A stretch of 54,854 nucleotides of DNA, counting the filler, from Sluysia triapertura (taxonomy: Eukaryota): NCBI GenBank assembly GCA_046118255.1. It is 4 parts of 4 records of this genome, joined end to end, with 100 filler letters (N's around TTAATTAATTAA, not from the genome) between each part and the next. Parts side by side here need not be neighbours in the genome. Positions count along the whole stretch, not along the records: positions 11,902 to 30,255 come from JBJNIA010153049.1; 3 more parts are not named here. One strand, written 5' to 3'. Every line of letters begins with the position of its first letter. Within the stretch, counting starts at the first letter, position 1. Positions 11,902 to 37,740 of the stretch are shown piece by piece. The position numbers were made by a program, and so were the translations under genes. The notes under the pieces were generated by a model. The model ran no database searches and was not told the origin of the DNA. It was given only the letters and a program-made list of their open reading frames with translations.

Positions 11902-12109
11902 AACCAGAATAGAAGAAAATTATATACTTTTGCTGTAAGAAAGCTGATTCAATACAGTAGTGGCAAACACTGATTGAACCCTATATTTCTTTAGAAATCT
12001 GTCTAAATTTTAAGCCCATTTATTTGTGGTTAGTGAACCTTGAGTTCTTATTGTTTAGTTATTCTTAGTTCTTATTGTTTATTGTATTCTGGGTACTAAC
12101 ATTTATTTG

Positions 12110-12321
12110 TGTTGTGTAACCCCTGAGAATGAGTAATATAATTGAATTTTTATTTTATTGAGTAATTGATTATTATAAGAAAGATAACTGTGCTATATTG
12201 ACTTAATTATTATTTGATTTCTTATTGTGATATATTGTGACATCATGTAATATATTGAGATTGAAGCTTATTCAATTGTCTTTTATAATTTAAAGATTAT
12301 TAAACAGATAAAAACACAACA
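12110..12321 (+). mobile_element. LTR-like sequence
   Basis: Inverted termini TGTTGTGT...ACACAACA. The 5' end GTTGTGTAACCCCTGA resembles the start of the LTR at 13654 (GTTGTGTCACCCATGA). No clear TSD. Confidence 0.55.
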
Positions 12322-12417
12322 TGACACTTTTTTAAAAATATTCCAAAATGTTTCGAAATTTTGTTAAGTATTTGTGCTGTTGTTATAAAGATAAAAAATT
12401 ATTAAACAATTTAAACT

Positions 12418-12895
12418 TTACCAGATGAAGTTGACGAACAAGAATCTGAACTTAATGTTATGGCAGATGTAGCGTCAGATATATTATCTTGTTCGATGCG
12501 TGGTAAACGAGTATTACAAGTTATTACGACTACAATATCTAATACGCTGAGAAGTGTAAACTGGCAAGAACGTCAGTGATATTTCATCATGTGGTGAAGG
12601 TTTATCACGTGTCACGGAAAGTTTGGATTATGAAAATGCCGAGTGCAAGCTTATGACGGTGCAGCTTTTGTGAATCTCTTCAAAGCCATTTCAAAAGATA
12701 TAAATCTGATTTATTTACCGAGAATAGCAAAAAAGTATTACCAAGTTATTGAATTAAAATTTAGTGAATTGATTAATTTTGTGACCGTAAATTAGTAATC
12801 GAACAAATTGTAACTACAATAGCAGCTCTTGCTTTTACTATTAGCGTTTCGTTTATGCCTTATTATGATCAATCTATGATTCTAATTAGAATATT
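12418..12895 (+). pseudogene. IPO5: Importin-5 (karyopherin beta-3) pseudogene fragment
   Basis: DEVDEQESELNVMADVASDILSCSMRGKRVLQVITTTISNTLRSVNWQER..ISSCGEG; RVQAYDGAAFVNLFKAISKDINLIYLPRI; KLVIEQIVTTIAALAFTISVSFMPYYD. Collinear with recalled IPO5 segments (ALDRMACGLGGKLVL; RVQAHAAAALINF; LVLEQVVTSIASVAD..FVPYYD). Has frameshifts and an internal deletion. Confidence 0.85.
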
Positions 12896-13653
12896 GTCGC
12901 AGCATTGTTGTACTGGACAAAAGCCACGTTTAAAGAAGCTATTTTTAAATCTTACGATTATTCCCATTAAAGTTTCTCATTTAATAAGTATAAATAAAGT
13001 AAGTAGATGGTTTGAAGACACTGACGTGTGTTTCGCATTACGTAAATTATTTCTCTTATTACACGTGTTAAGGTCACGTGAACATACTTTTCTAATGAGA
13101 AGCTCAGCAAACTAAAGAAACATCCTAAGGAAACTAAGGAAACATACTGTTTCCGTTGTCGCCGGTGTTTGTCTCTAATTTGAACTCAAGCCTCTGTTCA
13201 ACATCCGTAGGTCTCCTTCACAAGATGATCAATCGAATCAATTCACAAAATCATTCCTGACTAGAAAATCAAGTCTACAACGTCCAGTAGTCAGTCCATA
13301 CTCCGCACGACAAATCCGCAGATACTCGAAGCACTCTTAAAAAGCAAGTTTGCCTTATTTTATCGATTAACTTATTTTATTGATTAATTTATTGATTTGT
13401 CGGATTTATTTTTATTGTTTAAAACATGATGTGTCTAATTATTTTGTTTTTTATGTATTTTTAACCAACGTTTCAAATCTAATACGTTTCAGATTTAATA
13501 TAGGACTTTAAGTCCCACCTTCTCTTTAAATCCAATTTTAATGTAATTCCAATTGCACATAACTTAATCAATATATCTAAAACAAACGCCTCACAGCAAT
13601 TATATTTTGCATTGATTATATTTGGTATTAATACGGGTGCGAAAATTTAAATA

Positions 13654-13911
13654 AGTTGTGTCACCCATGATTGTGATTTGTTTTTAAAGAATAATTTACT
13701 TTATTATAAAGTATAATTTATAATATTGTTATAGATAATAATTTGTATTATGTTATATAGAGTACTTTGTATTGTTGTTATAAAGAATAATTTATATTTT
13801 TTAGTTGTAATTTTGTGATAATTCAAAGAATATATAGACAATCTGAATTTGTTTAATTATTGAGTTTTTAATTGATAATTTGTAAAATAAAAAAGTATAA
13901 AAGACACAACA
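13654..13911 (+). mobile_element. 5' LTR of a gypsy element, followed by a PBS-like TGGTGTCCCAGA
   Basis: 8-bp inverted termini GTTGTGTC...GACACAAC, AATAAA near the 3' end, TGG-initiated motif at ~13918, and gag directly downstream. Confidence 0.65.
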
Positions 13912-14023
13912 TAAAATTTGGTGTCCCAGATAAGTATTATTATATAAACTTGTTTTAATCAAAGAATAAGTTTATATAAGAATAAGATTTTATATTATAT
14001 GACAAAAAACACAAAAAAGAGAA

Positions 14024-14560
14024 ATGAATATCGAGCCAGCACGATCTTTTGTACTCCCACTGGAATCTTTCGACGGAAACCCAGATGCATTATCGAATTT
14101 TGTTAACTAATACCCACTTAATGCAAATGTGTACGGTAGGGATGAAGAAGCTCAGTGTAAGCGCTTTCAGCTTCATTTAAAAGTAAAAGCTGTAGAAGCT
14201 TATTCAAATATTCCCGAAGAGAATAAAAACTCATGGCAAAATTTAATTAGTGATTTTAGATTCTAAATTCGTTAATTTTAAAAACTTTCGAAACAGGATA
14301 CTAGGAAGTAAAGAAACAATTTGTATTCGATTTAAAACAATTAGCGAATAAGGCGTACCCGAGTTTTACGCCTGAACAAAAAATCGAATTAATTACTGAA
14401 AAATTTATAGATGGGTGTAAGGAACTAATAAGAACACAGCTTTTAATGTTAGACCTAACTAATTTAGACGACTTAGTATAAAAAGCCTCAAATATAGAAA
14501 GTAGAACAGGAATTACACACCAGTCAAATGTGATGAATATTGAGCCCATAATTCGTAATG
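14024..14560 (+). mobile_element. Decayed Ty3/gypsy gag
   Basis: MNIEPARSFVLPLESFDGNPDALSNFVN*YPLNANVYGRDEEAQCKRFQLHLKVKAVEAYSNIPEENKNSWQNLISDF...FVFDLKQLANKAYPSFTPEQKIELITEKFIDGCKELIRTQLL, a typical gypsy capsid pattern. Confidence 0.85.
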
Positions 14561-15410
14561 ATTGCGGTTGCCAACCTAATATCTTACAATTTTAATTTAA
14601 TATTACTCATAAAAACCACTATTCAGAATATTCAATAATTCATTTCTTTTAGGATTCTTTAAAATTGTCAATACTTTGGATCATTTTAAGTACACAGTTT
14701 CATAATATTAAAATCATAATTTAGGTCTAAAATTTTCAAACGTACATTCCAAAATTAATCCAAAACATTTAAAGTTCATAATTCTTCAACATTCAACCGT
14801 TAATATCATTGAAAAACAGTAAATTCACATTTCAAAATCACTTTTAATATTTAAATCAAAACGGAATTTCTTTTCAGATCTATAACTGTGTGTTATTATT
14901 CTTTTACTTCTTCTTAAGCTTTTAAAAGATAATCAGACATAATTAAAAGAATTCTATTTAAGAAATTTTTATTAGAAAGAAAAGAATTTGATTTACAAGA
15001 ATAAAGATTTATGCGTTTCAGTATAACTATCTCTTTTATTAATTTGTTACTTATTATCATTATCATTTTTATTTCTTGTACATAAAGATTGTGTAAGAAT
15101 TAAAAGGCAATAAAAGAACTTTATGTATTATTTTTATTTTTCATTATTATTATTATTAACATTATTATTACTGTATTAGTACATTTATTATTATTAATTT
15201 TAATTTTTTTATTATTATAATCAACATTTTATTTAATTATCAATGTCATTACATTATTTTTATCATTTTTTGTTATACCATATGTTGTGGTAACTACTTA
15301 ACTATATTCAAAATAGATTTGCCTGTCACCATTTTAATTACTATTTAATGAATTTTGTAAACTTTATGGTGATAGGCATACATTTACACATTGCTTTTAC
15401 ACATGAAACT

Positions 15411-15480
15411 TTGATTGGACAACCAATCATTGCTATTTTTGTTATATTTTCATTTTTTTCTCATTTGATGCCCAATCATA
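15411..15480. promoter_or_regulatory. Palindromic CCAAT boxes upstream of the orphan ORF
   Basis: TGATTGG-acaa-CCAATCA at ~15412-15429, another CCAATCA at ~15472, and TATAAT at ~15512, shortly before the ATG at 15560. Confidence 0.45.
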
Positions 15481-15559
15481 CCTAATTAAACAAAACAATT
15501 TGCATACAATTTATAATAATAGAATTGCTAACTCACTTGGTCGGTTAACAAATTTTAAA

Positions 15560-16111
15560 ATGATTTTGAAATGCAGTTTATGACAAACTCAGGAGCAGAC
15601 TAAGTTAAAATTAACTAATGTTGATATTGAAGAATTGATAGAAGATAGCGTCGATGATGGATCAGAAGTTGGTATGTTCAGAAGATATGATAATGGGATA
15701 TTAATATACAGTTCTAAGATTGATGAAGTATTTGTAATAAGAATCATTACTAATACTCTATCAGTTACCTATTATTTGTCTTATAATATCATATGTCTTT
15801 ACAATGAATTTAATGTCACTAAACAATTACAATATCCTTTTGGGTATTCTACCTACGATTATATCAAAGGCTGTTTAAAGGAATGCAGCATCCATGAAAT
15901 TAGAGAAGTATTTATAATAAAGAAGATCTGTAATATTCTCCGTGATAATATCATATGTACTCATAGTGAATTTATTATTCTTGAGCTATTAGAATATCCT
16001 TTTGGGTATTGTACTTATGATTACATCGAAAGCTGTTTAAAATACTACAGTACTCACCAAATCAATAGCAATAAAAATGATTACTATTGTTGTGATAATT
16101 TTAAGATTTGA
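15560..16111 (+). pseudogene. Intronless orphan ORF with an internal ~55-60 aa tandem duplication (one early stop after ATG 15560)
   Basis: EVFVIRIITNTL..NIICLYNEF..QLQYPFGYSTYDYIKGCLKECSIHEI is repeated as EVFIIKKICNIL..NIICTHSEF..LLEYPFGYCTYDYIESCLKYYSTHQI. Confidence 0.55.
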
Positions 16112-17076
16112 TTGTTTTATTTTACATGTTAAATTTTTCCATTTGATACAAATAATTAAATTTAAATTTTGTAAAAGCTTTTATAATAATTTTGAATTAA
16201 ATTATAAGTACAAATCAAATCATGTAACAAAGGTGAATTTTAAGTTTTTTAAAATTAATTTTGCTTTCCTGAAACACGTACTAAAGAGCATTAGAGTGGA
16301 ATATATTTCGCGTCCAGATGACGAGCATCCGGTTATACATATTCATGGATAAGCTGTATCAACAAATTCAAATGGTAGACAGTATACTAATAACCCAATA
16401 TGTAAGGATTCCATGTTTTATGTCAAGAGTGATTAAAAATTTTCTGTCGTCGTTAATAAATAGAATAACTTTGTATTATTATGTTGTAAAATTTTCGTTT
16501 AATAATGAATTTTATAAGTGCTATTTAAGTACTATTTTTTGTAATCACAGTTATTTGAAAATCGATAAGACTTTATGATAAAGTAAATGATAAAATTAAT
16601 TGTAATACCAATGTTAATAACAACTCATTAATAATTAAAGATAAAAATCATAATCTTAAAGCCATTAATAATAAAACCACAATATACATGTATAATATAA
16701 AATATTTAAAATTGGTGATTAATACATGTATTAAAAGTAAGTTTTACGTATTTTTTTCTATACTGATATGACATTGATTTATATAACTTGACAAACTCAT
16801 TAAATTATCACTATTATTGAATCTTTGATATAACTTGAAATAATCATTGATAGCTTAGTGATAAAGATTTTTACTTATGATTACTTGAAAACGGTATGAG
16901 CATTTAATTTTAGTTATTTCGTTATAGTAAAATCTTAACAGAATTTTAATGATATGAGATAACTTAAAAATTTAATTCTGTGTGATTGGATTAAATTTGC
17001 TTAATCGAAACTGTAACAAATTGTTCGACTGGTTCGACTGGTTAACTCAGAATTGTAACATGTTTTTATAAGTGTG

Positions 17077-17876
17077 TTAGTTAAAGAAATAATTATTATA
17101 AAAGAATATAGTTTTTATTTTTAATGTATTATCTGTACAAACAGTTTTTTGTTCAATGAAAATTAGTGGTTTCATTAGTTTGGTAACGAAGAATTTGAGA
17201 TATCCTTGTATTTTATATATTTCAAATATTTTATCCTTAACTAGCATATTATTTAATGATCTAGTATGTTCTAAATCATTTAAGTTATTAGCATTTATGA
17301 AGAGGTAAAAAGGAAAATTTAGGAAAGTGCTTAAGCTTATTATGGTTGTTACTAAAAGCAAACAAAAATACTCTTCTGGTATCTGATCAATTAATAATTT
17401 AAGCTTATTCTTAAAGTTTTTTATTGGCAGTTCTTGTAGGTTATTTACTTCAGATTTAATATTTTCACTTACGGAGTTTATTTTAATCTTATTAGAATTA
17501 AAATCAGTAATATGAGATAGATGTAAAACGATTTTTCTAAGTATCAATAAAACTTCAAATTTTACCGTTGAACCTATAACGATCTTCCAATTATGATTTG
17601 TAAATTTCTCCACATTCCATTGTAATCCATAAGAATCCATTTTGTATTTGAAATCTACAATATTTATAAAATTAAATATAACAATAAAATGGATATCATG
17701 ATATACCTGGTTCTCAACATTTTTCTCTAAAAGGTAAATAGTATTGAGTCATTTACATAGAATGAATCGAACATACACAATTCATCAATTGCAGGATTGT
17801 TTTCTTTCGAAGTAATAATATCTGTTTCAACTGTTCCATATGGATTGATTATTGCTAAAATTTTCTCCGTGGTCAT
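17077..17876 (-). pseudogene. Intronless orphan gene, ~265 aa with one frameshift
   Basis: MTTEKILAIINPYGTVETD...SILFT-[fs near 17730]-LLEKNVENQVYHDIHF...KMDSYGLQWNVEKF...FFN*. A long open frame in very AT-rich DNA. Confidence 0.5.
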
Positions 17877-17877
17877 T

Positions 17878-18511
17878 TTAGAATTGGAAATTATATAAAC
17901 ATCGGAATTCGTCTTGCATACTCTGGAATAAAGATCTCGTGGTTTCATAATAATTCAGTATTCGTGACGCAGACATTTCGTCTTCTGTATAACACAGAAT
18001 AATGCCACACATCTTGAAGAAAAGACTCTTCTCACCAGTATACGTCAAGAGACAAATTGATGAACGATCGAGATATTTGTTTAGGTATCGATTGATATCA
18101 TGTAAAATTATATCGAGCTCGAGAGAAAATAAATGATAATTTACTAAGAAAATTGAATGTCTAATAGAAAAATCAGTAGAATTTATTTTGTTATTGAACG
18201 AGGTTTAACGAGTTTCATGTATAATGACAAATACTCATTGATTAAGTAGGTTATGTTCATCATGTATCCGAACAACTTTACATCATATAAATGTTTTACC
18301 ATGATTCTAGAAAAAAGATCCATTCTTTGCTGGGATTGATTATATAATGGTGCATCACGTTTAATTTTCGACGATTGTACATTAATAATAGACAGTAATG
18401 CTGTCGACGAGTAATACCACATAGCATTTTGTTTCTGTTTCCAAACTAAAAATCTCTGATATTGTTGATACATATCGATTTGGTGAAGCTTTATTTTTCA
18501 AAATGTTGCAT
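17878..18511 (-). pseudogene. Intronless orphan gene, ~210 aa with two frameshifts
   Basis: MQHFEK-[fs]-KLHQIDMYQQYQRFLVW...SITK-[fs]-INSTDFSIRHSIFLVNYHLFSLELDIILHDINRYLNKYLDRSSICLL...CLYNFQF*. Its stop lies 1 nt before the next ATG. Confidence 0.45.
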
Positions 18512-18623
18512 CGCTATTTTTTTTTGATTCTGTACTTTTTACTGCTAATAATTATGTTATTTTTCTCCTCTCACAAAATGGTCACCACTAAAGCAAGTTG
18601 GTCTAGTTTGATTTACCATTGGT

Positions 18624-18779
18624 TATCCAATCACGACGTCAAAAATAATTATTTACATACAATAGTCGTGATTGGATGATATGTAGAATTGAAGTACAAA
18701 ATTAATTTTTTGATGATTTACCATCATCAATATTGACATGTTAATAAAATAGTGCGTAGAACGTCAATATTGATGATGG
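18624..18779. repeat. Two adjacent inverted repeats, the first containing CCAAT and GACGTC motifs
   Basis: ATCCAATCACGAC..27 nt..GTCGTGATTGGAT, then CCATCATCAATATTGAC..25 nt..GTCAATATTGATGATGG. Confidence 0.9.
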
Positions 18780-18977
18780 CGACGACAAAGGTGGTTTTAA
18801 TTATATTTATAAAATATTTTAGTAATTGATAATAATAATAATAACAATAATATTATTATTATTATTTTTGAATGGAAATAAATCGCATAAATCTTTCTTT
18901 TGATCTTTTGATCTTTTCTTTTAGATTCTTTAGTTCTAACATGTACATAAAAAAAAGAAACAAAAACAGATGGCATA

Positions 18978-19037
18978 CTGTGAAGGAGCAACGGTAACGA
19001 GGTATACTACGTATGAGTTATCGTTGTTGCTTCACAG
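18978..19037 (+). ncRNA. Candidate pre-miRNA-like hairpin
   Basis: 21-bp stem CTGTGAAGGAGCAACGGTAAC / GTTATCGTTGTTGCTTCACAG with two G:U pairs and one mismatch, 18-nt loop. Confidence 0.35.
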
Positions 19038-21329
19038 CAAGACAATGAATTCTTTTAAGCCTTGATATGTTATTTATGTAAGTGTAATGTTGATTTGAGC
19101 TGCGAGTGGAAAAAAAAGAATGTTGGAATAATTTCTTGAGATTTGTTTAAAGTTTGAAATAGAAAACAAGATTTATGCGTTGAATATAATGGTTTGAAAT
19201 GCTTATGAGAAGGTTGTAGTTTATATAATTTAAAAGACAATTCCAAAATAAATCTTAACGTATTTGTGATGTTAAAAAACTTGATAATGAATATGTGTAA
19301 ATGAAGTGGGTTTGGTTTGGTGTAATTGATTCGAGGTTTTAACGTAAATGTTTTCTTTGTCTGAGGTACTGTTAATGTGGTTGTATGGTATTAGTGTATT
19401 TGTGATTTACATATTATGTATTATGGTTGTGGTTTGTTTGATAGAATAACTTTTGAGTGAGTGTTATAAATTATTCGGAATTAATTATCAAAGTATGGCG
19501 TGAAGTGAATGATTGAGGGTGTTAGACGAATTGTTGGTTTATACGTTTTGTTGAAATATTATAAATGTCGAATGTTGTTTGTAATGATTCAATTAATGTA
19601 ATTCGATAGTGTGAAGTAAGATGGATTTAAATATTATGTTTTTTCGTGAGTAAGTTGTTGTGATTTGATGATGTTGAGTATGATTGTGATTTAGGTGTTA
19701 TTAAGTTTTGAATAATTTTGACTTATAGGTGTTCGCCACTACAATTAGTATTAGTATTATTATTATTTAAAACTAGTGTTATTTTCTTTTAATTATATTA
19801 TTATTTTAATTACATTGTTAGTTAAAGCTTAAATCCATTTAATTTTTAAATGTTAATGACATCGAATGTACAAACTTTCTAAAATGTGCATCTAAGATTA
19901 GATAAAAATTAAAATTTGAATCAACAACTTAAAAGTCATTTTCTACCATTTTCACAGTACAATAAATATAAGTTCAGATTAACATTTCAGAAATTAATAA
20001 CTTCTTTTTAAGATGAATATACTGATTCTTTCAAATACTTTTCTTCTAAACATATCCCAAGCTGTAATTCAAAGTCGATTTACACTATCATTGCTGTAGC
20101 TGATCTTGGATAATCTAAAAAAATCAATTGTGATGCCAAATCATTGGATTTTCAATATTGTGTAATTTGATTTTCCCTTCGATTGTTTATTTCTAATTAT
20201 CGATCCTTTCTTGAGAAACTCGTGTAAGTGCTTACAATCGCCTTGAATGTTTAAAAATTGTAAAGTTTCGTAAAGTTACTATTCAATATAGAATAATGTA
20301 ACTTTTGGAGAAATTTCATTATCATGTTTGATATTTAGGTATTATTTTAAGGTTTTATGTAGTGAGTTGGTTTGTTGTACGTGGGATGTTTTGTTAAGAC
20401 AGTCAATAAAATTTTAGTTGAATGGTTGAAGCAACACCACAGATTGTTTGGTAGAAAGTGACACTTATAACACATGCCCCTGAAGGAAGAGATTTTGCGA
20501 ATTCAAGAGTGAAAATATTGACGAGAGAAATGGAACAGAAAAATTTTCTTAGATGCATAGTTGATTACACATCGTGATAAATTATGTGAAACATGTGAAT
20601 TTAAGCCCAGCACAACAAATCATTTTACTTTCAACAACAACCTTAGAAAAATCAAAATAATAGCATCTTTCAACAGCAATATTCATTCTTACTTTTTTTA
20701 TCTCATTATACATAAATTTCTTTCGATTCACAAATAAAATAAATAATTTTATTCTTGTTGTTATTACTTGGTCACCGTATTACCTTATTATCGTTCTATT
20801 TTTGGCTAATACTGCATTGTTGTATTAGTATTAGTCTCGTTGATTTACGATTTTTCTATACTTTTATTATATTATATTATATAATAATTATTATTTTGCC
20901 ATTTTATTAGTTAGCTTTATACGTTTATTACTTAAAAGTTTACAACTAATGAAATTTGTATTTCTTTTTTTTCAGTCCACATATAAAACTGAACAAAATT
21001 AATAAGGTTGGAAAATTGCATATATTGAAAACAAAATACAACTATTGCCACTCACATCATTAAATTTTAAATAGCCAAAAATATTAATGATTGCAGTACA
21101 AATTTCGGATTTATAAAAAGAAATCGAATAAGTTTCATAGATTTATGAATCACATTGTTGAATAAAATCTCGATCGATAAGACCTTAATTAAAGCACTGG
21201 TAAAATATGTATCCTACCTCGAGGTCTATAGTTGTTACACATTCACACATGTCATACATGGAACCATGAGCTTGTCTTAAATATTTGACGGTCACGAGAA
21301 AAATATTCGTAGTGCCATTTCCAGTAAAA

Positions 21330-21565
21330 ATGTAATCTAAATTCTTTAAATTTTCTAATTTAGCTAAATACTTCAATTTTTCAAGAGTTTTAAGTGGGTT
21401 TCCACAAATTTTCGAAATATTTTAAATTAATACGTTTTACTAAATTTCTAAACCATCTTCAATTTGATTATCAAATAAGTATAATTTTTCTAAACTTCTC
21501 AGATTAGGAAAATCCTCGAGACATTTCAAGTGACAATTAGTTAAACTAGTTAAACTAAGGTAAAT
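21330..21565 (-). pseudogene. ANP32: ANP32-like leucine-rich-repeat pseudogene fragment
   Basis: LTNCHLKCLEDFPNLRSLEKLYLFDNQIEDGLEI...INLKY...GNPLKTLEKLKYLAKLENLKNLDY, matching recalled ANP32 [24 protein letters not shown]...LKKLENLKSLDL. Frameshifted. Confidence 0.8.
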
Positions 21566-21600
21566 TTATTCAAAATCACTGTTGTCACAGACATTTTTTG

Positions 21601-21615
21601 ATGATGATGATGATG

Positions 21616-21656
<41 letters not shown>

Positions 21657-21657
21657 C
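21601..21657. repeat. (GAT)n(TAT)n microsatellite
   Basis: Seen directly in the sequence. Confidence 0.95.
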
Positions 21658-22266
21658 GGTTTACTATTGCAGTTTCAAAGACATTTCATATGCCATTTTC
21701 TGATTGAAAATTAATTCCCTTTTTAACTCTATCAAACTTAGATCTGGTGAAGATTTTATTCTTATTCTAGGTGGTAAGGAAATCCAGTAATTCTCGTGAA
21801 CTTTATATAGCGGTGACATTAACACTGAACAATCTAATATTTTGACTTTGTTTTCTTTGGTACTTGTAACAGTTTATACTTGTTACATTCTATAAGTAGT
21901 TCGCTTGTGCATTCTAAACTATCAGGTAATTTTACTGTCACTTGTTTAAATTTATTTATAAGCACGCATAAATTCTCCCATTGGTTTTACAAATGCTCCA
22001 TTTTTCAATGGTATTATTGGTAATACCATAATTGGGTTTGTAATCCATGTGGCCGATTTATTCTTTATAATTTATTTATTTAATTGACAATCTCTATACA
22101 TGAGTATTTGATAATTTTTTTCCAATCAAATTAAAATAATTGTGTTATCGCATGGTTGTGGTTACTATATCTGCTTTAACATTTATTATTAATCGTCCTT
22201 TTTAATAAAAATTCCGCGATAATTAGTACTAATAACTTCTGAGAATTTAGTTACCTTTTTCTTTAA

Positions 22267-22417
22267 CCCTTTCAGTACGACTTTGGGCCAGTGAGATATT
22301 TCTGTATAATTGAACTAAATGTGCTGTAAATAAGTAAAGGAACGTGTTTACATAGTTTCAGATTTTTAGAAAATATGGTTTTCTCTAGGACTTAAATATC
22401 CCGCAGTATTGAAAGGG
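22267..22417. mobile_element. piggyBac-type MITE
   Basis: TTAA|CCCTTTCAGTAC...GTATTGAAAGGG|TTAA: 12-bp TIR with one mismatch and a TTAA TSD. Confidence 0.85.
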
Positions 22418-22972
22418 TTAAGACAAATAACCATTCCGTATCAGGTGTTTCTATTTCTGGAATTTATTAATCCATTTTTTGCTTCAGGGATCTAAGTTGC
22501 ACCAATCTTTAATATGTGAATCCTTTATTTTGATTAAACATCGCTGTTTTTGAATGAGTTAATGGGCATTCCAATTTATTCACTTTGTACACTAATGCAG
22601 TACTTTCTGTAACATAATTATATCCGTACTTGCATCGTAGTATTACTGTTTCAATGGAAATATGAAATCCAAGTTTTCAATTTTATCGTATAATATTCCG
22701 TAGAAATCATGCCCTTACAATTGCATCTAAATTGTAATTTTCATTAGTGCAGAATCCATGTTTACTTTTAGTATAGTTTCCAACTGCAAAATGGTGATAA
22801 TATTTTACTTCAATGATTACTTCAATATTTTACTTCAATGATTAAGTCATTGGTAATTCTTACTCTTCCGATTTGAAATGCTTCTAAACACGTATCTACG
22901 GTCACTATCAATTATACGAATGGTGTTCTTTTAACGCATATGCTAAGCAGTCCGTACTTAATAATCCACTTT

Positions 22973-22976
<4 letters not shown>

Positions 22977-23006
<30 letters not shown>
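22977..23006. repeat. (TA)n microsatellite
   Basis: Seen directly; marks one edge of the insert in env. Confidence 0.95.
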
Positions 23007-23009
<3 letters not shown>

Positions 23010-24316
23010 TATTTATCTGAACTGTTAATAAAAAACTTTAATAATGATTTTACTAAGATTCGTTAAAATGAGCCTGATTACTCAACTATTCAATGATTTA
23101 CCAAAAGTTAACAACTGAAAAAATAATATATTAAGATAATCAAATTTTATAACAAAAGAAATAATAAATAACGTGATTTACAAAATATCAAAATGCAATA
23201 AGTTAGGAAGTTTATTTTTTGATCAATAATCTTATGTAAATAAAGTTTAGAAAATAATTTGCTCAGTTAACGAATTAAATGTTAAAAATTTATTCGAAAT
23301 TTTAAGTTGATTTTACTAGGCAATATTGTTAAATTATTGCTTTAAAACTTATTAAATAAAACTACGAATTATCGAACTAAATCTTTTTCTGTGATGAATT
23401 TTTCTTCCAAGATGTGTTTTCAACGAGAATTTAGATATTAGCCAAATTGTGTTAAAAATTTGTGTCAATATTGTGTGAAATGTATGAGTGAAACTAACTT
23501 TTATAGTAAAATTTTTTTTGACCTTGATATGATTTAAGCATTTGTTTTTTAAACAAATTTATATTTTAATTTAAACAAAATAAAATTTACGTTAGTTTAA
23601 TTTTATTTTTTTGAAATTATTTTATTTAAATTTAACAATTAATTTATTTAATTTATAATTTTTTATAAATAATATAACTTACATAAATCAATAATATCCA
23701 TAATTGATTTGTATAAAGTACAAAATATTAACAGTTCAAATAAATATAAAGTGTGTTTTCTATATCTAATAAAGAAAAACTGCTTCCAATTTCTGTATAT
23801 CTCCAGTTATGTGCAATTATTGAAGTGGTTGGTCTTATTCCACATAATATTAGTATTATTGTTAATAATTTCTGAAAATTCTGACTTATTAATTTATTTA
23901 ATTTTCCTTGTTTGTGTTATTTCTTGAATGTCATTCTTCATTCCTTTTGCTAATTCTTTCCATCATTCTTGAATTATCCACTTTAATAGGTATTTAATTA
24001 TTTGCTTTATAAGAATTTTGGTTCTTTCGTGAATTTATATAGTTGAATGCGCCATTATTGCTATAATTTTGTTACTAGTTTTTTCCGTTTATATAGCTCC
24101 ATTTTATTATTCTAAACTTATGTTATGATGTAAGAATTCTAATGATCCTGCCCTTATTTGCGGCATGAACTTTCCATTTGCATGAATGTCGTTGAATTTC
24201 CCTTACTTGTAACTTTGATCTAATTTTTTTATTTGGATTTTTGTGTCTCAACATTTTCCACAATTTTTTAATTTATGTTTTCCATTTTCATTAAAATTAT
24301 TCCGTAACATTTTTAA

Positions 24317-24496
24317 CACTTAATACGCGGGCTATTTTACAAAATTTGAAGACGCATGAATTTTTATACATAAAATGAAATAACTCCTAAACAACACATC
24401 ATTTTAAATCAAAAATTCGTATAACTTTCATAGACATTTTTGCTTCTACCGCCAACATACAAAGCCCGTGTTAATGCGGGACCGGCACTTTAAGTG
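24317..24496. mobile_element. piggyBac-type MITE
   Basis: TTAA|CACTTAA...TTAAGTG|TTAA, with imperfect GC-rich subterminal similarity. Confidence 0.65.
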
Positions 24497-24789
24497 TTAA
24501 CAATGTTTCCCTTAATTTCTCCGTTTTACGAATATCAATATCAACAATTGCAAATTATCTTAAGGCATTAAATAAACTTCCTCTACGATGCTACTCCAAA
24601 TTCCTAACTTTATCTTTTTTATAATTTCTCTTGTAACTTCTTGATTTATTTTCTCCCTTTGCTACATTATGTACCAATCGTAAACATCATCATCATCGAT
24701 CCAAGCAAAATTTTGTATTGGTTCGCTTTTGTTATTTTCCATCATATAAATACGATTTCTTCGATCCAACGGAAAGTTTGGAGTATATT

Positions 24790-25580
24790 CCGGAAAGCCC
24801 TTTTATAATACCTTTTTTTGACAATGATTGCATTAAATCCTTACCCTAATACGGAATATTTCTTTACGGATGATTTTCAAAGTTATTACCATAATCATTA
24901 AATGGTCTGATTTTATTAGTGGATCAGTTTGCTTGACCTTTTGGTTAATTGTCTGGGCGTATCCAATTATTTGGTGGTAAGTAGTTGTGTTGAATAAGTT
25001 TTTTGATATGTAGGATTATTTGTGAATTTTCTGTGATTATAAATTTCATTACCTTCAGGAGATTTCGACCAAATTGTTTGTTCTTGTTCTTGGTCTTAAT
25101 ATATTGTTATGGTAATTTACATATATATTTTTTGCAGATCTTGATATATTTCTGTAAATTATTTGTTTCGGTTGCAAAATTTACATTATGTTCTTTTTCA
25201 TTAATTTCCTTCTCCAAATATCAAGCCTTTTCTATCGTGGCATTCAACGCTGTTGCCAGAGTATCTGTCTTCCTTTTAATTCCTTTAATCATCCCTTTGT
25301 AAGATTTTTATCAAACTTTTTCTTCATTATTTATTTTGGGCGGATAAGCTCTTTCAATTCAAGTATTTAATTGATAAGCATATTTTGCAACTGTTTCTCT
25401 TTTTGTAACCTTTTTCTTAACGATCGTTTCTGATGTCACTATCTTTAATTAAAGCTGAATTCATTTTTTTCTGATTCTGAGATAAAATTTAATGCATTTG
25501 ATGCATGTTTCTTAAATATGAAGCAAAGTTTTTCTCTTGGAATCCACCTTAGGGATTCTGTTTCCTCATTATATTGATTG
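24790..25580 (-). mobile_element. Decayed gypsy-like gag with a zinc knuckle remnant
   Basis: ESLRWIPREKLCFIFKKHASNALNFISESEK; RETVAKYAYQLNT*IERAYPP; KGMIKGIKRK...IEKA*YLEKE; an N/Q-rich linker; CNHCQK-[fs]-YYKRAF as a degenerate CCHC. Confidence 0.75.
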
Positions 25581-26619
25581 GTTTTGTGAAATAGAACTTA
25601 AAGATTTATTGATGAGATTTTATAAAAAAACTCAACATACCAATTAATTAGAAATATGAGTTCGCCTACAATGCTAGATTTATCCACTAAAGGGCTAGTC
25701 CGTAGGATTTTAAATTTGAAAAAGTTATCTTAAAGTAAGGTTTTGGAGGTCGATTATATTAATATTAATTCAAAATTAATAGTTTATTTTTTCTTAGTGA
25801 TCGTTCTAATCTGCAATTGTTTAATCTATATTGGTTGAATGTTGGTTGGTTGAAATTCTGCTTTTATAGCGAGATTAAAGTGTTGAGAATTTTATTTTCG
25901 ATACCCTTTAAACAGGATCTACACAAAATAATAGATTTTATAACTCGGTCTTAAAAACCGGAAAGATAAATTGTGTACATTTTATAGTAATTCGTAACTA
26001 TGTAATTTAACAAAAGCGAGATTAGTTGTGTAAATATTGTATATGATCCTTTTTAAATAGAATCGAAAATAGAATTTGCTACCGAAGTTTATAATCGGTT
26101 TTATATCTAGAATGTATACTCAACATAAAAATGTAATAAAAACAAATTTACAAAATGTACGCTCAACTAAAGTTCACATTTGACAATATTAAGTAATGAA
26201 ATCTAAAAGTTTTGCCTGATCTGAAAATTTTTCTTTTCTATTCTGATTAAGACAGCGATTCAGTTTCATCATGTGTGCTCGGATTAGTGTATTGTCATTT
26301 ATTATATTCTTATTTACTCTTTTATTATTTTTATCAGCTTCGTAAAGACACTTTTTATCTAAAAGGCTTAAATATAAAATACAAAAACATTAAAACTGTC
26401 AAGAAGTATATAAAACTTTATGGAACTTTATGCTAACTTATATGTATACATCGACTATTTTTTATAATCACTTATTTAATATTTAAGCACCAAGTCTTCT
26501 ATAACTTACATATGTTCAACAAGGACCTTATGAAACTTTACTTTTATAAAGTCTATGCACCAAATATATTCTATAATAATAATATTCTTTAATAATTTTT
26601 TTACTTATGAAACTGTAAC

Positions 26620-26914
26620 ACTTATTAATGTTTATCCAACAAGTATTCTCAGTCCGAGTATCAAATTTTAATATTAGCTCATGTTATATATTATCAAAAC
26701 CAGAAACCATCGACTAACTCATTAAATTTATGACAACTGTAATTCACTCTTCAACTATTCGAAATTCTTTAGTCAATATCAATCTGCAATTATCAATTCT
26801 TATTCGAAATTGTTTGCCGGGTAATAATTCAACTTTTAATCTTACTTTGTAACTTTCCTCCCATGTAAGAGATAGAAATGCCTTTGGGCTTCTGTTGAAT
26901 AATTTTAATTTCAT
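26620..26914 (-). pseudogene. Short orphan (pseudo)gene
   Basis: MKLKLFNRSPKAFLSLTWEESYKVRLKVELLPGKQFRIRIDNCRLILTKEFRIVEE*, with coding-like sequence continuing through further stops. Confidence 0.3.
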
Positions 26915-27237
26915 TGAAATGATTTTATAATTAATTTTTTTTCAATTTTATAAAAATAAATTTCAAATGTTTATAATTATTACTTATTAACTCAGAAAAA
27001 TTTAAAGATTTAAAATTATCATAAAATTGGTTATTAAACAAAGTAAAAAATTCGAATCCTAAAGTTTTATCAATAAAAACATTATTAATGTGATATTAAT
27101 AGGATAATCATACGATATAATGTTTATTATTGTGGAACGGTTTATATTTTGGACCACTATAAGCCTCTTGTAATGCATGAATCTTATAAAAAATAAAAAT
27201 TACTATCAATCGATCTAGTTTCATTAACAGAAAACTT

Positions 27238-27594
27238 TTATTTAAGTCTTGAAGTTTCTATATGAACATCAGAATTGATTTCATCTTCGAAATTCATTTG
27301 GCACTTGTTTATTGTTTGGTTGAAACAACGATGATTAACTTGTACCGACCTTAGCAAGTTGTGGATCCGATCTAAGTGGTTGTTAAATTTATCTTCAATT
27401 ACAGAACGGGAACATAATTCTGCAACATTGTGACAATAGCTGCATGAATGACCATATTTAATACATGAACCGAACTCATCGGTCCAAAATGTACATATAA
27501 CAGCTTGATCAATTTTTATAAGAAAATTGTAATTAAGGTTATTACCGAATGTTGCTGTCGATTGAAAGTCCTTATATACTTGAACGAAATTCAT
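27238..27594 (-). CDS. Unkempt-type CCCH zinc finger protein (118 aa, or the 3' part of a frameshifted larger gene)
   Basis: CTFWTDEFGSCIKYGHSCSYCH gives C-x9-C-x6-C-x3-H at 27430-27495. Confidence 0.65.
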   Translation of the reverse strand: MNFVQVYKDFQSTATFGNNLNYNFLIKIDQAVICTFWTDEFGSCIKYGHSCSYCHNVAELCSRSVIEDKFNNHLDRIHNLLRSVQVNHRCFNQTINKCQMNFEDEINSDVHIETSRLK

Positions 27595-27830
27595 TCTATT
27601 GACACTTGTAAGTTATCATTATGATTAAACATGATTTGATTAAGAGAGTTTATTGCATCTTCAAATCTTTCTACTAACATTACATTGACAAGACGCGTAC
27701 GATAGAGATATTTATCAGACGAGTAGGATTCGCTTTTATACTATCCTTTGGAATCAATTGGAGTAAACATATTCTTTCTCGTAATAAAATTAATAGCATC
27801 GTAAACTTGATATCGACAATTTTCAACCAT
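27591..27830 (-). pseudogene. Orphan frame overlapping the CCCH ORF start (ATGA overlap)
   Basis: MVENCRYQVYDAINFITRKNMFTPIDSKG*YKSESYSSDKYLYRTRLVNVMLVERFEDAINSLNQIMFNHNDNLQVSIE*. Confidence 0.4.
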
Positions 27831-28619
27831 TCACAAATAAATTTATTATTTTAAAAAGAATGGGTATAATGCATAACGTTTATAATATGAATAGCTCTTT
27901 TATTTTTGAACATATCGAAATTTGTCGCTTGCAAGTTATGTCAAAAGAGGATAATAACGTAGTTGAAGATGTTAAAGGGAATTCTATTTTGATTATAATG
28001 ATGTTATGAAATAACTTTGAAATGTAATTTTAATGTTTTTCAATGATATTAATGATTTGAATGTTGAAGAATTGTAAACTTATAATGTTTAAAGTACATA
28101 ATTTTAATGAATCTGAAAAAGTAAAATGTGAAATGTTGTGAAATGTGTAGTGATGAGTTGAAATTTTGAATGAAAAGGTTGGCCACCAAATGCCTTTAGA
28201 TCTAGACTTAAATTTTGAATTCCAATTATCTTTCAAAGTTTCACTGAAAGGTGATTAATCTCCAAAGGTGGATTAATAAACTATCATCAGAAACTATGCA
28301 TAATAAAGACTGAAAAAGAAACCATACGTAATTTATTTAGCTGCAGTTTGATGCTAATATTTTAATTGATATTAATTTAAACAAATTGATTTCATATTCT
28401 TTTATATTATCATGCTCACTAAATCGAAATTCACATATTAGTTAATTTAATTCCAATAACAATATCTCCAATTAATCCATTATTACCTAACATCGGTTTC
28501 TTACCGATATAATTGCACAAAGACTAGTTTAAACCAAATCGGAAATTCGAATGATATCAACTAAATTCGATGTTGATGACCAATTCAAATCGGATCCCGA
28601 TTTAATATTTGGTTGTAAA

Positions 28620-28795
28620 TGCTCTAATTAATCTGTCTTCAGTCTTTTCAGTGTCATTTGTATGTTTGCGTGATATTGTGAAAACAGTTTTTGCTACTCC
28701 TAAATCTTAGCCAATAGCTTGTTCTTTAATAATTTTTCTGTATTCAATTTTTGTTTTTCAGTTAATTTTACTTCAGTTGCCATTTTCTCTCCATA
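28620..28795 (-). mobile_element. Tc1-like transposase N-terminal HTH fragment
   Basis: MATEVKLTEKQK...QAIG*DLGVAKTVFTI...DTEKTEDR. Confidence 0.5.
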
Positions 28796-28997
28796 AAATC
28801 CTAATAGGTATAAATATTACTCTAATATTTTATTAGATACACATTTTTATTACATCTGTATTTCAAAATATTCTTATTCATATATTTCTCTAGGTATTAT
28901 TTATTTATTATTATTATTATACTATTTTTGGATAATACAAATGATATATAGCATCCAGAAAATACTCATTGAATAAAAATTATTTTGTTATATTTAG

Positions 28998-29656
28998 ACT
29001 TTGTACACTAATCAGTATTCAGTTACTAAGCATATCAAGTCGACTGCATTGTCTGGCGGTAGTGACGGATTGCCAGGTGTCTTTTTCACATATGATCTCG
29101 CACCAATAATGGTCTGGATTAAAGAAGAAAATAAGTTTGTTATTCCTTTCCATTAAATCTTTTTTATTAGAAAATAAAAGTATACATTTAAATTTCTTAA
29201 TTCTTTCACAGAGTGCACCTATGTGATATAAGTTTGTTACAGTCATTCGCATTTGACCAAAAGCATGTAAACAATGTTTATTTCTATTTGAAAACACATG
29301 AACTGACAAGACAAAATGCTTGTCCAACCATGAATTCCTAAGTTTCTATTACTTCTGAAAAGTGTCGATACAATAATACTCAATAAATTGTGGACGCTCT
29401 CAATTAATTGGAAGATTGATAATGATGATCTTTGTTTTGAAAAATAAATTTTTGCATGAAAAATTAACACGGAGTATTCAGTTTTAAATTTTAATTCACC
29501 AACATTATCATTAATGAACACATGAAAATTGAATAATTTAATATAATTAAATAATTCATAACATTAGCGGAATTATTTGATGAATAGCATTGTATTTTAG
29601 ATCATTCCTAAAATTTATAACAAATCTTTGTGCTATTATTGGTGGTGTCTTTACAG
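28998..29656 (+). CDS. ERGIC3: Two exons of ERGIC3 (28998-29134, 29601-29656); partial gene or duplicated fragment
   Basis: TLYTNQYSVTKHIKSTALSGGSDGLPGVFFTYDLAPIMVWIKEENK|SFLKFITNLCAIIGGVFT with intact AG/GT boundaries and matching phase. Flanking exons were not found. Confidence 0.9.
29190..29520 (-). mobile_element. hAT (Buster/Charlie-type) transposase fragment within the ERGIC3 intron
   Basis: EYSVLIFHAKIYFSKQRSSLSIFQLIESVHNLL and WLDKHFVLSVHVFSNRNKHCLHAFGQMRMTVTNLY resemble EHxxLLFHTEVRWLSxGxxLxRxFxLxxE and WLxKLAYLxDIFxxLNxLNLxLQG. Confidence 0.55.
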
Positions 29657-30255
29657 GTTATAATTTGTAATAATTCAAATTAATAAATTGTAAAAATAAA
29701 TTTTAATAAACTACTTTTGGATCAAATATTCATTATTTAAAACAGGGTTAAATTAATCCTCTTCCAAATGGAGTAAAAGTGAAATTTTTGTGTGTAATGA
29801 CGATGAACAAAAATTGTAGTAATTTTAAATTTCAAAAATGAAAAAAGTTTTATAAAAAAAGTTCAATTTGACAAAAAACATTAATACTGTACATTTCATG
29901 GGGTACAATAGTATAATACAGTTATAAACTGCAGAAATCAGAATGTTTTATAATTTAATACTTTAGTTCTGATTTAATCTTAGAAAACGATTAAAATATC
30001 CCGATGTCCTTTGTGTGCAATTTAGGATTGAGTGTTAGTCAGTTATTTCCGATTTTAGCCTAGTCGATTGTACTGTATGTGTGGGTGTAGTAAAAAAATT
30101 AAATAATTAAAGAAACGGATAAATTTTTGTTGACTACAAATTAAAATAAAATATTACTTACTTTTATTTTCACAACCCTTTTAAAACAATAAATTTTTAC
30201 GTTTAAAATTTTTAACTTTAAAACAAGAAAGCACTTCATTTAACAGTGGCTTAAA

Positions 30256-36674: not shown

Positions 36675-37740
36675 CAATGGACGGCAGCTATATTTGAATT
36701 AAAAAATAAAATGTGATTTTACATGTGACAAAATTATAATAACACCATTCTAAAGTTTAATACATTAATTAATTAGTCAATTTTATTTAATATATTCTAT
36801 TTAAATTTTTTTTTGTTAATTATTATATATCTAATTAAAAAATTTTGACAAATAAAATTATTTTAACAAATTTGGACAAATTTTGGCCTATAGAGATGCA
36901 AATTTTGGAATAAGAGAAATTGGATGTCGCATTAACAAAGATGCAAGCACAATCAATCGATTTCTTCAAGATCCCGAGAATTATGACAAAATAAGAAGAG
37001 GGCGGAAACCAAAGTTAACATCGAGAGAGAAAGGAGAATTCTTCGTGACGTCACTGACAAAACAGATTAAATTGGTCCATCAGCTTCCTTGTTCAATAAG
37101 AACTTCCAGAGGGTTGTAGGCAACTGCCAACACTTAAGATATGAGAAGAGGAAGCCCAAACCAAAACTCACAGCTGTGCACAAGTCGGCACGGGTCACAT
37201 GGGCACAATTATACATATCGTGGATTTTAAAATGGCATCAAATTATATTCAGTGATGAGAAAAAATTTAATCTTGATGGCCCCGATGGATGCCAATTTTA
37301 CTGGCATGACCCGAGGAAGAGTCGGAGGTGGTTCTGTGATAGTCTTGGAGCCTTTGGTTGGAATGGGAAAATAGAAATTGTGTTCTTAGACGGTAAACAA
37401 AACTAATAGAAGAATATTCAAACACTCAATGACTTCCTCATCCACGACGCAGGTCAAATTGGAGGTCGAAACTGGATCTTCCAACAGACAATTGTTCAAT
37501 CTATTGCTCCGCGGAGACAACTAAATGGTTTGAATATAACCAAATTCGGGTTTTGAGTTAGCCATCTTGTAGCCCTAACTTAAAGCCCATTGAGAACCTA
37601 TGGGGTTTACTCGTTCGGAAGGTTTACCGGAATGGACGCCAATTTGACAATATAAAGAATTTGAAAGCAGCCATTCTTTCTGCTTGGGAAGAAAGCAGCC
37701 TTGAGGAGATGAAAAATCTAGTTAGCTCAATTCCTCATAC
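36675..37740 (+). mobile_element. Tc3-like Tc1/mariner transposon with a disrupted transposase (36883-37740)
   Basis: HTH IREIGCRINKDASTINRFLQDPENY..GRKPKL; IIFSDEKKFNLDGPDGCQFYWHD; WIFQQ-DN; PSCSPNLKPIENLWGLLVRKVYRNGRQF. Putative left end TA|CAATGGACGGCA; right TIR not found. Confidence 0.93.

What the first reader, a model, noticed from the sequence alone, without database searches (positions are those of the whole stretch)
21680..25670. Gypsy-like retroelement carrying a chuvirus-type class III glycoprotein as env
Seen on the minus strand, in order: a PBS-like motif (25660-25666), gag with a decayed CCHC knuckle, a short pol remnant with no RT, and a signal-peptide-led Cys-rich frame (IIAHNW..SLLDIEN; VDTCLEAFQIG; HGFC; MGEF..VTVK..ECTSELL; DCSVLMSPLYKV..YW). 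Known: chuvirus G reads roughly LIGYDC..SLLDVxxC; CGMHS; CxxMHxTG; GEVxHxxKCxPVxV..CYxELPV; CxPLxPxMY, and such genes have been captured by BEL/Pao elements in mosquitoes. Inference: here the carrier gag looks Ty3/gypsy-like, which suggests an independent env capture and a once-infectious invertebrate retrovirus-like lineage. The supplied ORF track does not show it.
Basis: partly seen in the sequence, partly recalled or inferred. Interest (0 to 1): 0.72.

Follow-up and report, generated by a model that had tools for sequence, protein, structure and literature searches.

The report
Decayed Burro-like flatworm envelope retroelement
This is a broken, cut-short copy of a virus-like jumping gene, likely of a flatworm, whose membrane-fusion gene sits between its capsid and polymerase genes, a layout already described for planarian 'Burro' elements; sister copies also carry several proteases and two extra predicted surface proteins whose job is untested.

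Summary
The glycoprotein and its link to a gypsy gag are real. Window env matches genome copies (58% aa, E 7e-42) that hit PF24664 Monjiviricetes_fusion (E 3e-47). Two readings are wrong. The 'pol remnant' is a Bcl-2-like domain; pol lies after env and is lost from this truncated copy. The 'PBS' lies inside a 611-bp repeat that splits gag. Copies give the order gag - ubiquitin-like - Bcl-2-like - signal peptide - class III env - TM - 3 to 4 proteases - dUTPase-like - Ty3-type RT - RNase H - integrase - two membrane proteins - protease, then a RING ORF (54 of 54 contigs collinear). That is the Burro / GAG-ENV-POL errantivirus layout of flatworms (PMC6431247, PMC13524379), and env resembles the Schmidtea envs listed there. 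So this is likely an old flatworm lineage, not a fresh chuvirus capture. Host is likely a flatworm (cox1 reads AAA as Asn). I found no print record of the protease/ubiquitin-like repeats or the post-integrase membrane proteins. The scan had already noted the Bcl-2 cargo and a post-integrase surface protein in other genomes. New member of a known kind.

The parts
26346..26432 (-). 5' leader of the element (part); a decayed leader motif may reach 26562; no LTR or intact PBS recognised in this copy
   Evidence: 76% match to the leader of copy L050; motif position
   Evidence: tblastn with gag frame of L137, 40% identity, E 1e-4
25575..26185 (-). inserted 611-bp TG..CA repeat with ATAT direct repeats, likely a solo LTR of another element; holds the supposed PBS
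   Evidence: ends and repeats; 43 matches incl. self
25012..25574 (-). gag capsid C-part and linker, many stops and frameshifts
   Evidence: tblastn; probe L135 hits Retrotrans_gag E 3e-6
24492..24850 (-). decayed CCHC knuckle (24832-24818) and following helical region
   Evidence: tblastn E 6e-20 to 8e-22; sister copies read CNHCKKYGHYERAC
24313..24500 (.). TTAA-flanked MITE; the ubiquitin-like domain and acidic linker of sister copies (about 360 aa) are missing around here
   Evidence: inverted ends; gap in match to L133 aa 405-762
23921..24166 (-).
   Evidence: 43% to L133 aa 763-859, E 3e-17; family tests
23755..23913 (-). internal signal peptide (predicted) and start of env
   Evidence: 61-63% to L113 and L135; these hit PF24664 from profile position 7
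22980..23747 (.). AT-rich insert with 22-bp terminal inverted repeats, plus (AT)n run
   Evidence: no family copy covers it
21697..22979 (-). class III-type env ectodomain, broken, ending before the C-terminal ectodomain and TM helix
   Evidence: tblastn 46-70% to L047, L049, L004 frames; those hit PF24664 at E 1e-5 to 3e-47
22263..22421 (.). TTAA-CCC..GGG-TTAA MITE inside env, high copy
   Evidence: many 83-95% matches
21323..21594 (-). unrelated decayed LRR fragment after an (AAT)n run; marks the 3' break of the element
   Evidence: Pfam LRR_4 E 6e-5; ANP32 likeness is recalled, not tested

Best explanation
The locus is a dead, 3'-truncated copy of a multi-copy Ty3/gypsy retroelement with the order gag - Bcl-2-like - class III env - pol, likely a flatworm relative of the Burro / GAG-ENV-POL errantiviruses. 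Shown: domain order, gypsy-type pol, purifying selection between copies, four later insertions and loss of everything after mid-env in this copy. Inferred working: one long polyprotein is threaded through the ER membrane. Gag, the ubiquitin-like and Bcl-2-like domains stay in the cytosol; an internal signal peptide sends env into the lumen and would leave the Bcl-2-like domain membrane-anchored; the env TM helix returns the chain to the cytosol, where 3 to 4 aspartic proteases would free RT and integrase; two more signal/TM pairs after integrase would make two small surface proteins, the first with two PPxY-type motifs in its tail. Env would fuse particles with a new cell, and the Bcl-2-like, ubiquitin-like and RING parts would tune host cell death and ubiquitin pathways. 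None of these functions was tested.
For: Env family: PF24664 E 1e-32 and 3e-47. Order: 54 of 54 contig groups with 3 or more domains and 417 of 417 domain pairs collinear, from 241 loci in 178 groups; L137 spans gag to RT, L057 env to integrase. Gypsy pol. Bcl-2-like: Pfam E 1e-3 to 0.05, all below the curated cut-off; profile against PDB, 60 of 60 listed hits are Bcl-2 family, best E 6e-4; Atlas first hit Bcl-2-like 15, score 0.90, 199 features. Ubiquitin-like before Bcl-2: Pfam E 6e-4. One frame: 19 of 23 adjacent junctions are spanned by a stop-free natural frame in at least one contig. Selection: dN/dS 0.12-0.51 Bcl-2 (10 pairs), 0.07-0.49 env (10), 0.19-0.32 membrane proteins (19 of 21; 2 saturated), 0.05-0.19 RT (6) (pairs not independent, open frames preselected). 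Match to print: Burro order in PMC6431247 section 7; GAG-ENV-POL with gB-type env in flatworms in PMC13524379; env motifs and cysteines line up by eye with its six Schmidtea rows. Host: cox1 L205 has AAA at 5 sites where three fish cox1 have Asn.
Against: No copy is intact or complete, so the single polyprotein is pieced from overlapping copies; 4 of 23 junctions were not spanned by the strict motif test (one, protease to RING, is a true stop). No RT tree against named Burro or Schmidtea sequences could be built; the env comparison with them is by eye. Burro's MATH, BIR and ankyrin domains were not hit in the 5 gag-to-env frames scanned. The Bcl-2 AlphaFold model was poor (pLDDT 44) and matched nothing. 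The env profile found no class III structure in the PDB by sequence; only a faint herpes gB Pfam hit in a relative (E 0.014). The assembly also holds fish mitochondria, so the cox1 host call is indirect.
Confidence: 0.88

Rival explanations
1. One reading: an independent, lineage-specific capture of a chuvirus glycoprotein by a gypsy element, parallel to the mosquito BEL/Pao element Anakin.
For: Env is in the same Pfam family as chuvirus G. PMC13524379 says GAG-ENV-POL elements are not monophyletic in pol, so several origins are possible.
Against: All 6 homologues found in two searches are unnamed long proteins; 3 carry retroviral proteases, 1 more begins with a gag-like region, none is named as viral; identity 37-43% to the L003 frame for the four found. 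Both searches are word-limited. The same env type and order occur in Schmidtea, Macrostomum and Prostheceraeus elements.
Confidence: 0.07
2. The family was never infectious in this host: env and the membrane proteins serve intracellular or cell-to-cell spread, or were kept for polyprotein processing only.
For: No particle, expression or fusion data exist here; a 1:1:1 gag:env:pol polyprotein is unusual for budding retroviruses (general knowledge). PMC6431247 calls the provirus idea a hypothesis.
Against: Env keeps signal peptide, cysteines and TM helix and is under purifying selection between subfamilies (dN/dS 0.07 at dS above 1).
Confidence: 0.3
3. Chance mosaic: unrelated gag and glycoprotein fragments nested by separate insertions, or a host-domesticated env.
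For: The locus does hold four nested insertions.
Against: Same order in 54 of 54 contig groups; the window env is full of stops and lacks its TM end.
Confidence: 0.02

Closest known systems
Burro / GYPSM1 giant gypsy-like LTR retroelements of dugesiid planarians (PMC6431247, section 7 read; Grohme 2018 and Jurka 2007 known only through it)
   Same: Gag with CCHC, ubiquitin/SUMO-like, BCL2-like, env like mononegavirus fusion glycoproteins in frame between gag and pol, dUTPase-like before RT, one very long ORF.
   Different: One CCHC seen instead of 2-3; no MATH, BIR or ankyrin hit; 3-4 proteases with ubiquitin-like repeats and a zinc-binding H2C2 copy before RT; two membrane proteins and another protease after integrase; RING ORF. 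The section does not mention these, but its figure could not be seen.
GAG-ENV-POL HSV/gB-type errantiviruses of Platyhelminthes, C1a cysteine type, Smed_errantivirus_1-6 (PMC13524379)
   Same: Ty3/gypsy pol, gB-type/chuvirus-like env before pol; env motifs and cysteine spacing alike by eye, closest to no. 3; listed spans 12-18 kb.
   Different: Those are intact, up to 215 copies; here all copies seen are broken. A PBS-like motif is visible in this family, while the paper lists none for the Schmidtea elements. Its main text has no mention of bcl, apoptosis, ubiquitin or accessory genes.
Anakin, mosquito BEL/Pao elements with chuvirus glycoprotein (10.1101/2020.02.15.950899, abstract and outline only)
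   Same: Glycoprotein of the same broad family inside an LTR element.
   Different: BEL/Pao carrier, insect host; here gypsy pol, env before pol, Bcl-2-like cargo.

Membership tests
Ty3/gypsy (Metaviridae) | pol order PR-RT-RH-IN | tested here: met
   L057 and L085; in sister copies, not in the window copy
Ty3/gypsy (Metaviridae) | RT closest to Ty3-type RT | tested here: met
   PDB best hits Ty3 RT E 8e-48 and 6e-47, next caulimovirus-type 2e-30; no tree built
Ty3/gypsy (Metaviridae) | flanking LTRs, PBS and target-site duplication | tested here: inconclusive
   conserved TGG-led PBS-like motif after ..ACA in 5 of 7 leaders shown; one short stretch shared by 5' and 3' flanks; no full LTR pair on these short contigs; priming tRNA gene not found
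BEL/Pao (Anakin type) | BEL/Pao gag and pol | tested here: not met
   Pfam hits are gypsy-type (Retrotrans_gag, RT_RNaseH, Integrase_H2C2); no Pao-type family appeared; RT nearest Ty3
Class III / chuvirus-type fusogen | profile match to PF24664 | tested here: met
   (sister copies); window linked at 58% identity
Class III / chuvirus-type fusogen | class III fold and fusion activity | not tested
   env was not folded; sequence search of PDB found no class III chain
GAG-ENV-POL errantivirus (PMC13524379) | env between gag and pol | tested here: met
   env before RT in 6 of 6 contig groups holding both; gag before env in 10 of 10
GAG-ENV-POL errantivirus (PMC13524379) | same pol clade as the flatworm elements | not testable with these tools
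Burro | ubiquitin-like then BCL2-like then env in frame | tested here: met
Burro | dUTPase-like domain between protease and RT | tested here: inconclusive
   a conserved ~110-aa segment sits there but has no Pfam hit; the name rests on position and recall
Burro | MATH, BIR, ankyrin accessory domains | tested here: inconclusive
   no hit in the gag-to-env frames scanned; upstream accessory ORFs could not be examined on short contigs
Burro | giant size (over 30 kb with LTRs) | not testable with these tools
   619 Mb in 263,945 contigs; coding part roughly 13-14 kb by adding overlapping copies
Burro | host in Dugesiidae | tested here: inconclusive
   flatworm-type mitochondrial code only; host not resolved further

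The most novel reading that the evidence does not exclude
This lineage is a complex invertebrate retrovirus made as one flavivirus-style, membrane-threading polyprotein: a class III fusogen plus two separate surface proteins (a candidate attachment pair, one with PPxY budding motifs), up to five aspartic proteases interleaved with ubiquitin-like repeats in a Ddi1-like arrangement, a membrane-anchored Bcl-2 mimic and a RING ligase; the multi-protease, three-glycoprotein design is undescribed.
Probability: 0.3. Interest if true: 0.7.

Novelty: new member of a known kind. Interest (0 to 1): 0.33.

Why it matters
The headline claim, a gypsy element with a chuvirus-type env, is already in print, so the locus itself adds one more decayed member. 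What may matter is the family's anatomy. Herpes gB and related class III fusogens often need partner proteins for attachment (general knowledge); two conserved membrane proteins behind integrase are candidates for that role. Several proteases in one retroelement polyprotein pose a testable question about processing. Intact, expressed relatives exist in Schmidtea (PMC13524379 supplement; BURRO1 expression in PMC8532177 passages), where these questions can be asked without touching the broken copies here.

Tried and rejected
Direct Pfam scan of window frames with X at stops: no env, gag or Bcl-2 hit. AlphaFold of the Bcl-2-like domain: pLDDT 44, fold search uninformative. AlphaFold of the post-integrase proteins: first ectodomain a confident beta-sandwich (pLDDT mostly 73-92), but only weak Ig/FN3-like matches (Foldseek best E 0.06, VIA best Z 6.0 rmsd 3.1 over 65 residues, viral best E 8e-3); second domain low confidence. 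No homologue of that region among 1.84 billion representatives; Atlas hits under 0.9, several FN3; Pfam fn3 E 0.046 in 1 of 5 such frames. Ubiquitin-like repeats inside pol: weak only (PDB profile best BAG6 UBL E 0.09; hhalign to the first ubiquitin-like domain 62%). Priming tRNA: 3 pattern hits were not tRNA genes. Sequencing runs: one DNA holder, no RNA holder listed. Grohme 2018 not held under the id tried. Literature searches for the extra features found nothing: 0 papers; only the papers cited. No named chuvirus G came back for a tree. Look-ups of earlier scan notes by sequence: nothing. Figures of both key papers could not be seen and may show the extra domains.
Full report
Setting. The finding lies in window stretch 11902-30255, which is contig G000:C153049 of a 619-Mb, 263,945-contig, about 25% GC assembly. 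The assembly holds four near-complete cox1 genes. Three are 47% GC and look like fish genes (recalled likeness); the fourth (L205, 30% GC, 47% T) has AAA at five sites where those three have Asn and uses AAG for Lys at two shared Lys sites. AAA = Asn is the code of rhabditophoran flatworms and echinoderms (established knowledge). With the env likeness below, a flatworm host is likely. I did not resolve it further.

Observation. All quoted env motifs are present at the stated places. Six related polyproteins from the protein collection score up to 78.6 bits on 21680-23920, against at most 25.0 in 50 shuffles. The window frames are too broken to hit Pfam themselves, but sister copies are not: L003 (335 aa) and L004 (269 aa) hit PF24664 Monjiviricetes_fusion at E 1e-32 and 3e-47, and the window matches L004 at 58%, E 7e-42. 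The window env stops at 21697, before the end of the ectodomain and the TM helix; an (AAT)n run and an unrelated LRR fragment follow.

Corrections. The 'pol remnant' (24166-23921) is not pol: protease, RT, RNase H and integrase probes do not hit the locus. It is the C-terminal half of a domain with at least 150 matches in the genome that is Bcl-2-like: weak Pfam Bcl-2 hits, all under the cut-off; BOK at E 0.003 by single sequence, below two designed repeat proteins; 60 of 60 listed PDB profile hits in the Bcl-2 family; Atlas first hit Bcl-2-like 15 at 0.90, with a recognition value under the tool's threshold. Its predicted model was too poor to use. The 'PBS' at 25660-25666 lies in a 611-bp TG..CA repeat with ATAT direct repeats; gag resumes at 26186-26344 and the leader at 26346-26432. 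The family's own PBS-like motif sits about 220 bases upstream of gag in other copies. Three more insertions break the copy: two TTAA-flanked MITEs and a TIR element. The nearest copies are only 67-77% identical over gag and env, so this copy is old.

Family anatomy. I mapped 12 domain probes on 241 loci (178 contig groups; 125 hold a domain). All 54 groups with three or more domains and all 417 domain pairs are collinear. The order is gag (Retrotrans_gag, one CCHC) - ubiquitin-like - acidic linker - Bcl-2-like - signal peptide - env - TM - protease - H2C2 - protease - further protease(s) with ubiquitin-like repeats between - dUTPase-like segment - RT (YIDD) - RNase H - H2C2 - integrase - signal/Cys-rich ectodomain/TM/two PPxY-type motifs - signal/FN3-like ectodomain/TM - protease, stop, then a RING ORF. 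L137 has four protease motifs between env and RT and L057 three. RT is nearest Ty3 RT in the PDB. Env is tied to the post-integrase proteins on 3 contig groups. A stop-free natural frame spans 19 of 23 adjacent junctions; three more are bridged only by overlapping frames seen; protease to RING is a true stop. Pairwise dN/dS is below 0.6 in all 52 pairs with a value, so the accessory parts were kept by selection while the element was active; the pairs are not independent and open frames were preselected. The first post-integrase ectodomain folds as a confident beta-sandwich with only weak Ig/FN3-like matches and has no homologue among 1.84 billion representatives. The ubiquitin-like reading of the repeats in pol is weak.

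How it likely works. Env would mediate entry; the extra membrane proteins may aid attachment or budding. No step of this was tested, and no RNA run was listed.

Comparison with print. PMC6431247 section 7 (read whole) describes Burro: gag, ubiquitin/SUMO-like, BCL2, env with hits to mononegavirus fusion glycoproteins, protease, dUTPase-like, RT, in one ORF of about 5,000 aa, and notes decaying fragments in another planarian. PMC13524379 (abstract, passages, section 14, part 1 of section 5, part 2 of section 6, rows of supplements 1 and 2) reports GAG-ENV-POL gypsy elements with gB-type env in Platyhelminthes, Nematoda and Bryozoa, and 114 arthropod gypsy elements with the chuvirus-like glycoprotein. 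By eye its six Schmidtea env rows share the YQES, C-x-x-A-F, C-x-TG-x-S and TNY-x-G motifs and the cysteine spacing with this family. The Anakin preprint was seen as abstract and outline, PMC8532177 as passages. Grohme 2018 was not available, and figures were not visible. Searches found no paper on multiple proteases or post-integrase membrane proteins in such elements; that is limited evidence. Three of six relatives from other assemblies also show retroviral proteases after env, two or more each, so the trait is probably family-wide. Earlier scan notes on other genomes report the Bcl-2 cargo and a post-integrase surface protein.

Verdict. Observation partly confirmed, interpretation partly supported. 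A decayed new member of a known kind; interest 0.33, carried by the under-described accessory anatomy of the family and not by this copy.

Noticed in passing
L154-L174, L206-L229 (e.g. L172, L214, L216, L224): Integrase runs in frame into two tandem signal-ectodomain-TM proteins (first with PPSY/PPPY motifs), then a further aspartic protease; about 150 genome matches; dN/dS 0.19-0.32.
   Followed up: yes
L137:876-4500, L057:3460-5740, L046:1-2450: Three to four aspartic protease domains between env and RT, with an extra H2C2 and weakly ubiquitin-like repeats; Ddi1-like arrangement is a recalled likeness.
   Followed up: partly
L102:724-1071, L156:439-927, L138:2929-3324: Separate RING-finger ORF after the long ORF (Pfam zf-RING_2 E 2e-6).
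   Followed up: partly
L200:830-1723, L198-L201: A second, distant family with Bcl-2-like domain, env and gypsy RT (about 65% RT identity) in the same genome.
   Followed up: partly
L133:269-2950: An 894-aa open frame in which an unrelated Asn-rich N-terminal part replaces gag before the ubiquitin-like and Bcl-2-like domains and ends at the env signal peptide; possible host-gene fusion or domestication.
   Followed up: no
L202-L205: Three distinct fish-like cox1 genes beside the flatworm-code cox1; food, host or contamination.
   Followed up: partly
window 21323-21594 (-): Decayed intronless LRR fragment, ANP32-like by recall, right after the element's 3' break.
   Followed up: partly
window 14003-14269 (+); 44648-47533 (-); 37071-37403 (+): Another gag-like fragment; a decayed gypsy gag-pol; a Tc1/mariner-like transposase fragment (by recall).
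   Followed up: no
L230-L232: Other repeats share the family's PBS-like motif, suggesting a common priming tRNA (Met or Ile by recall); the tRNA gene was not found.
   Followed up: partly
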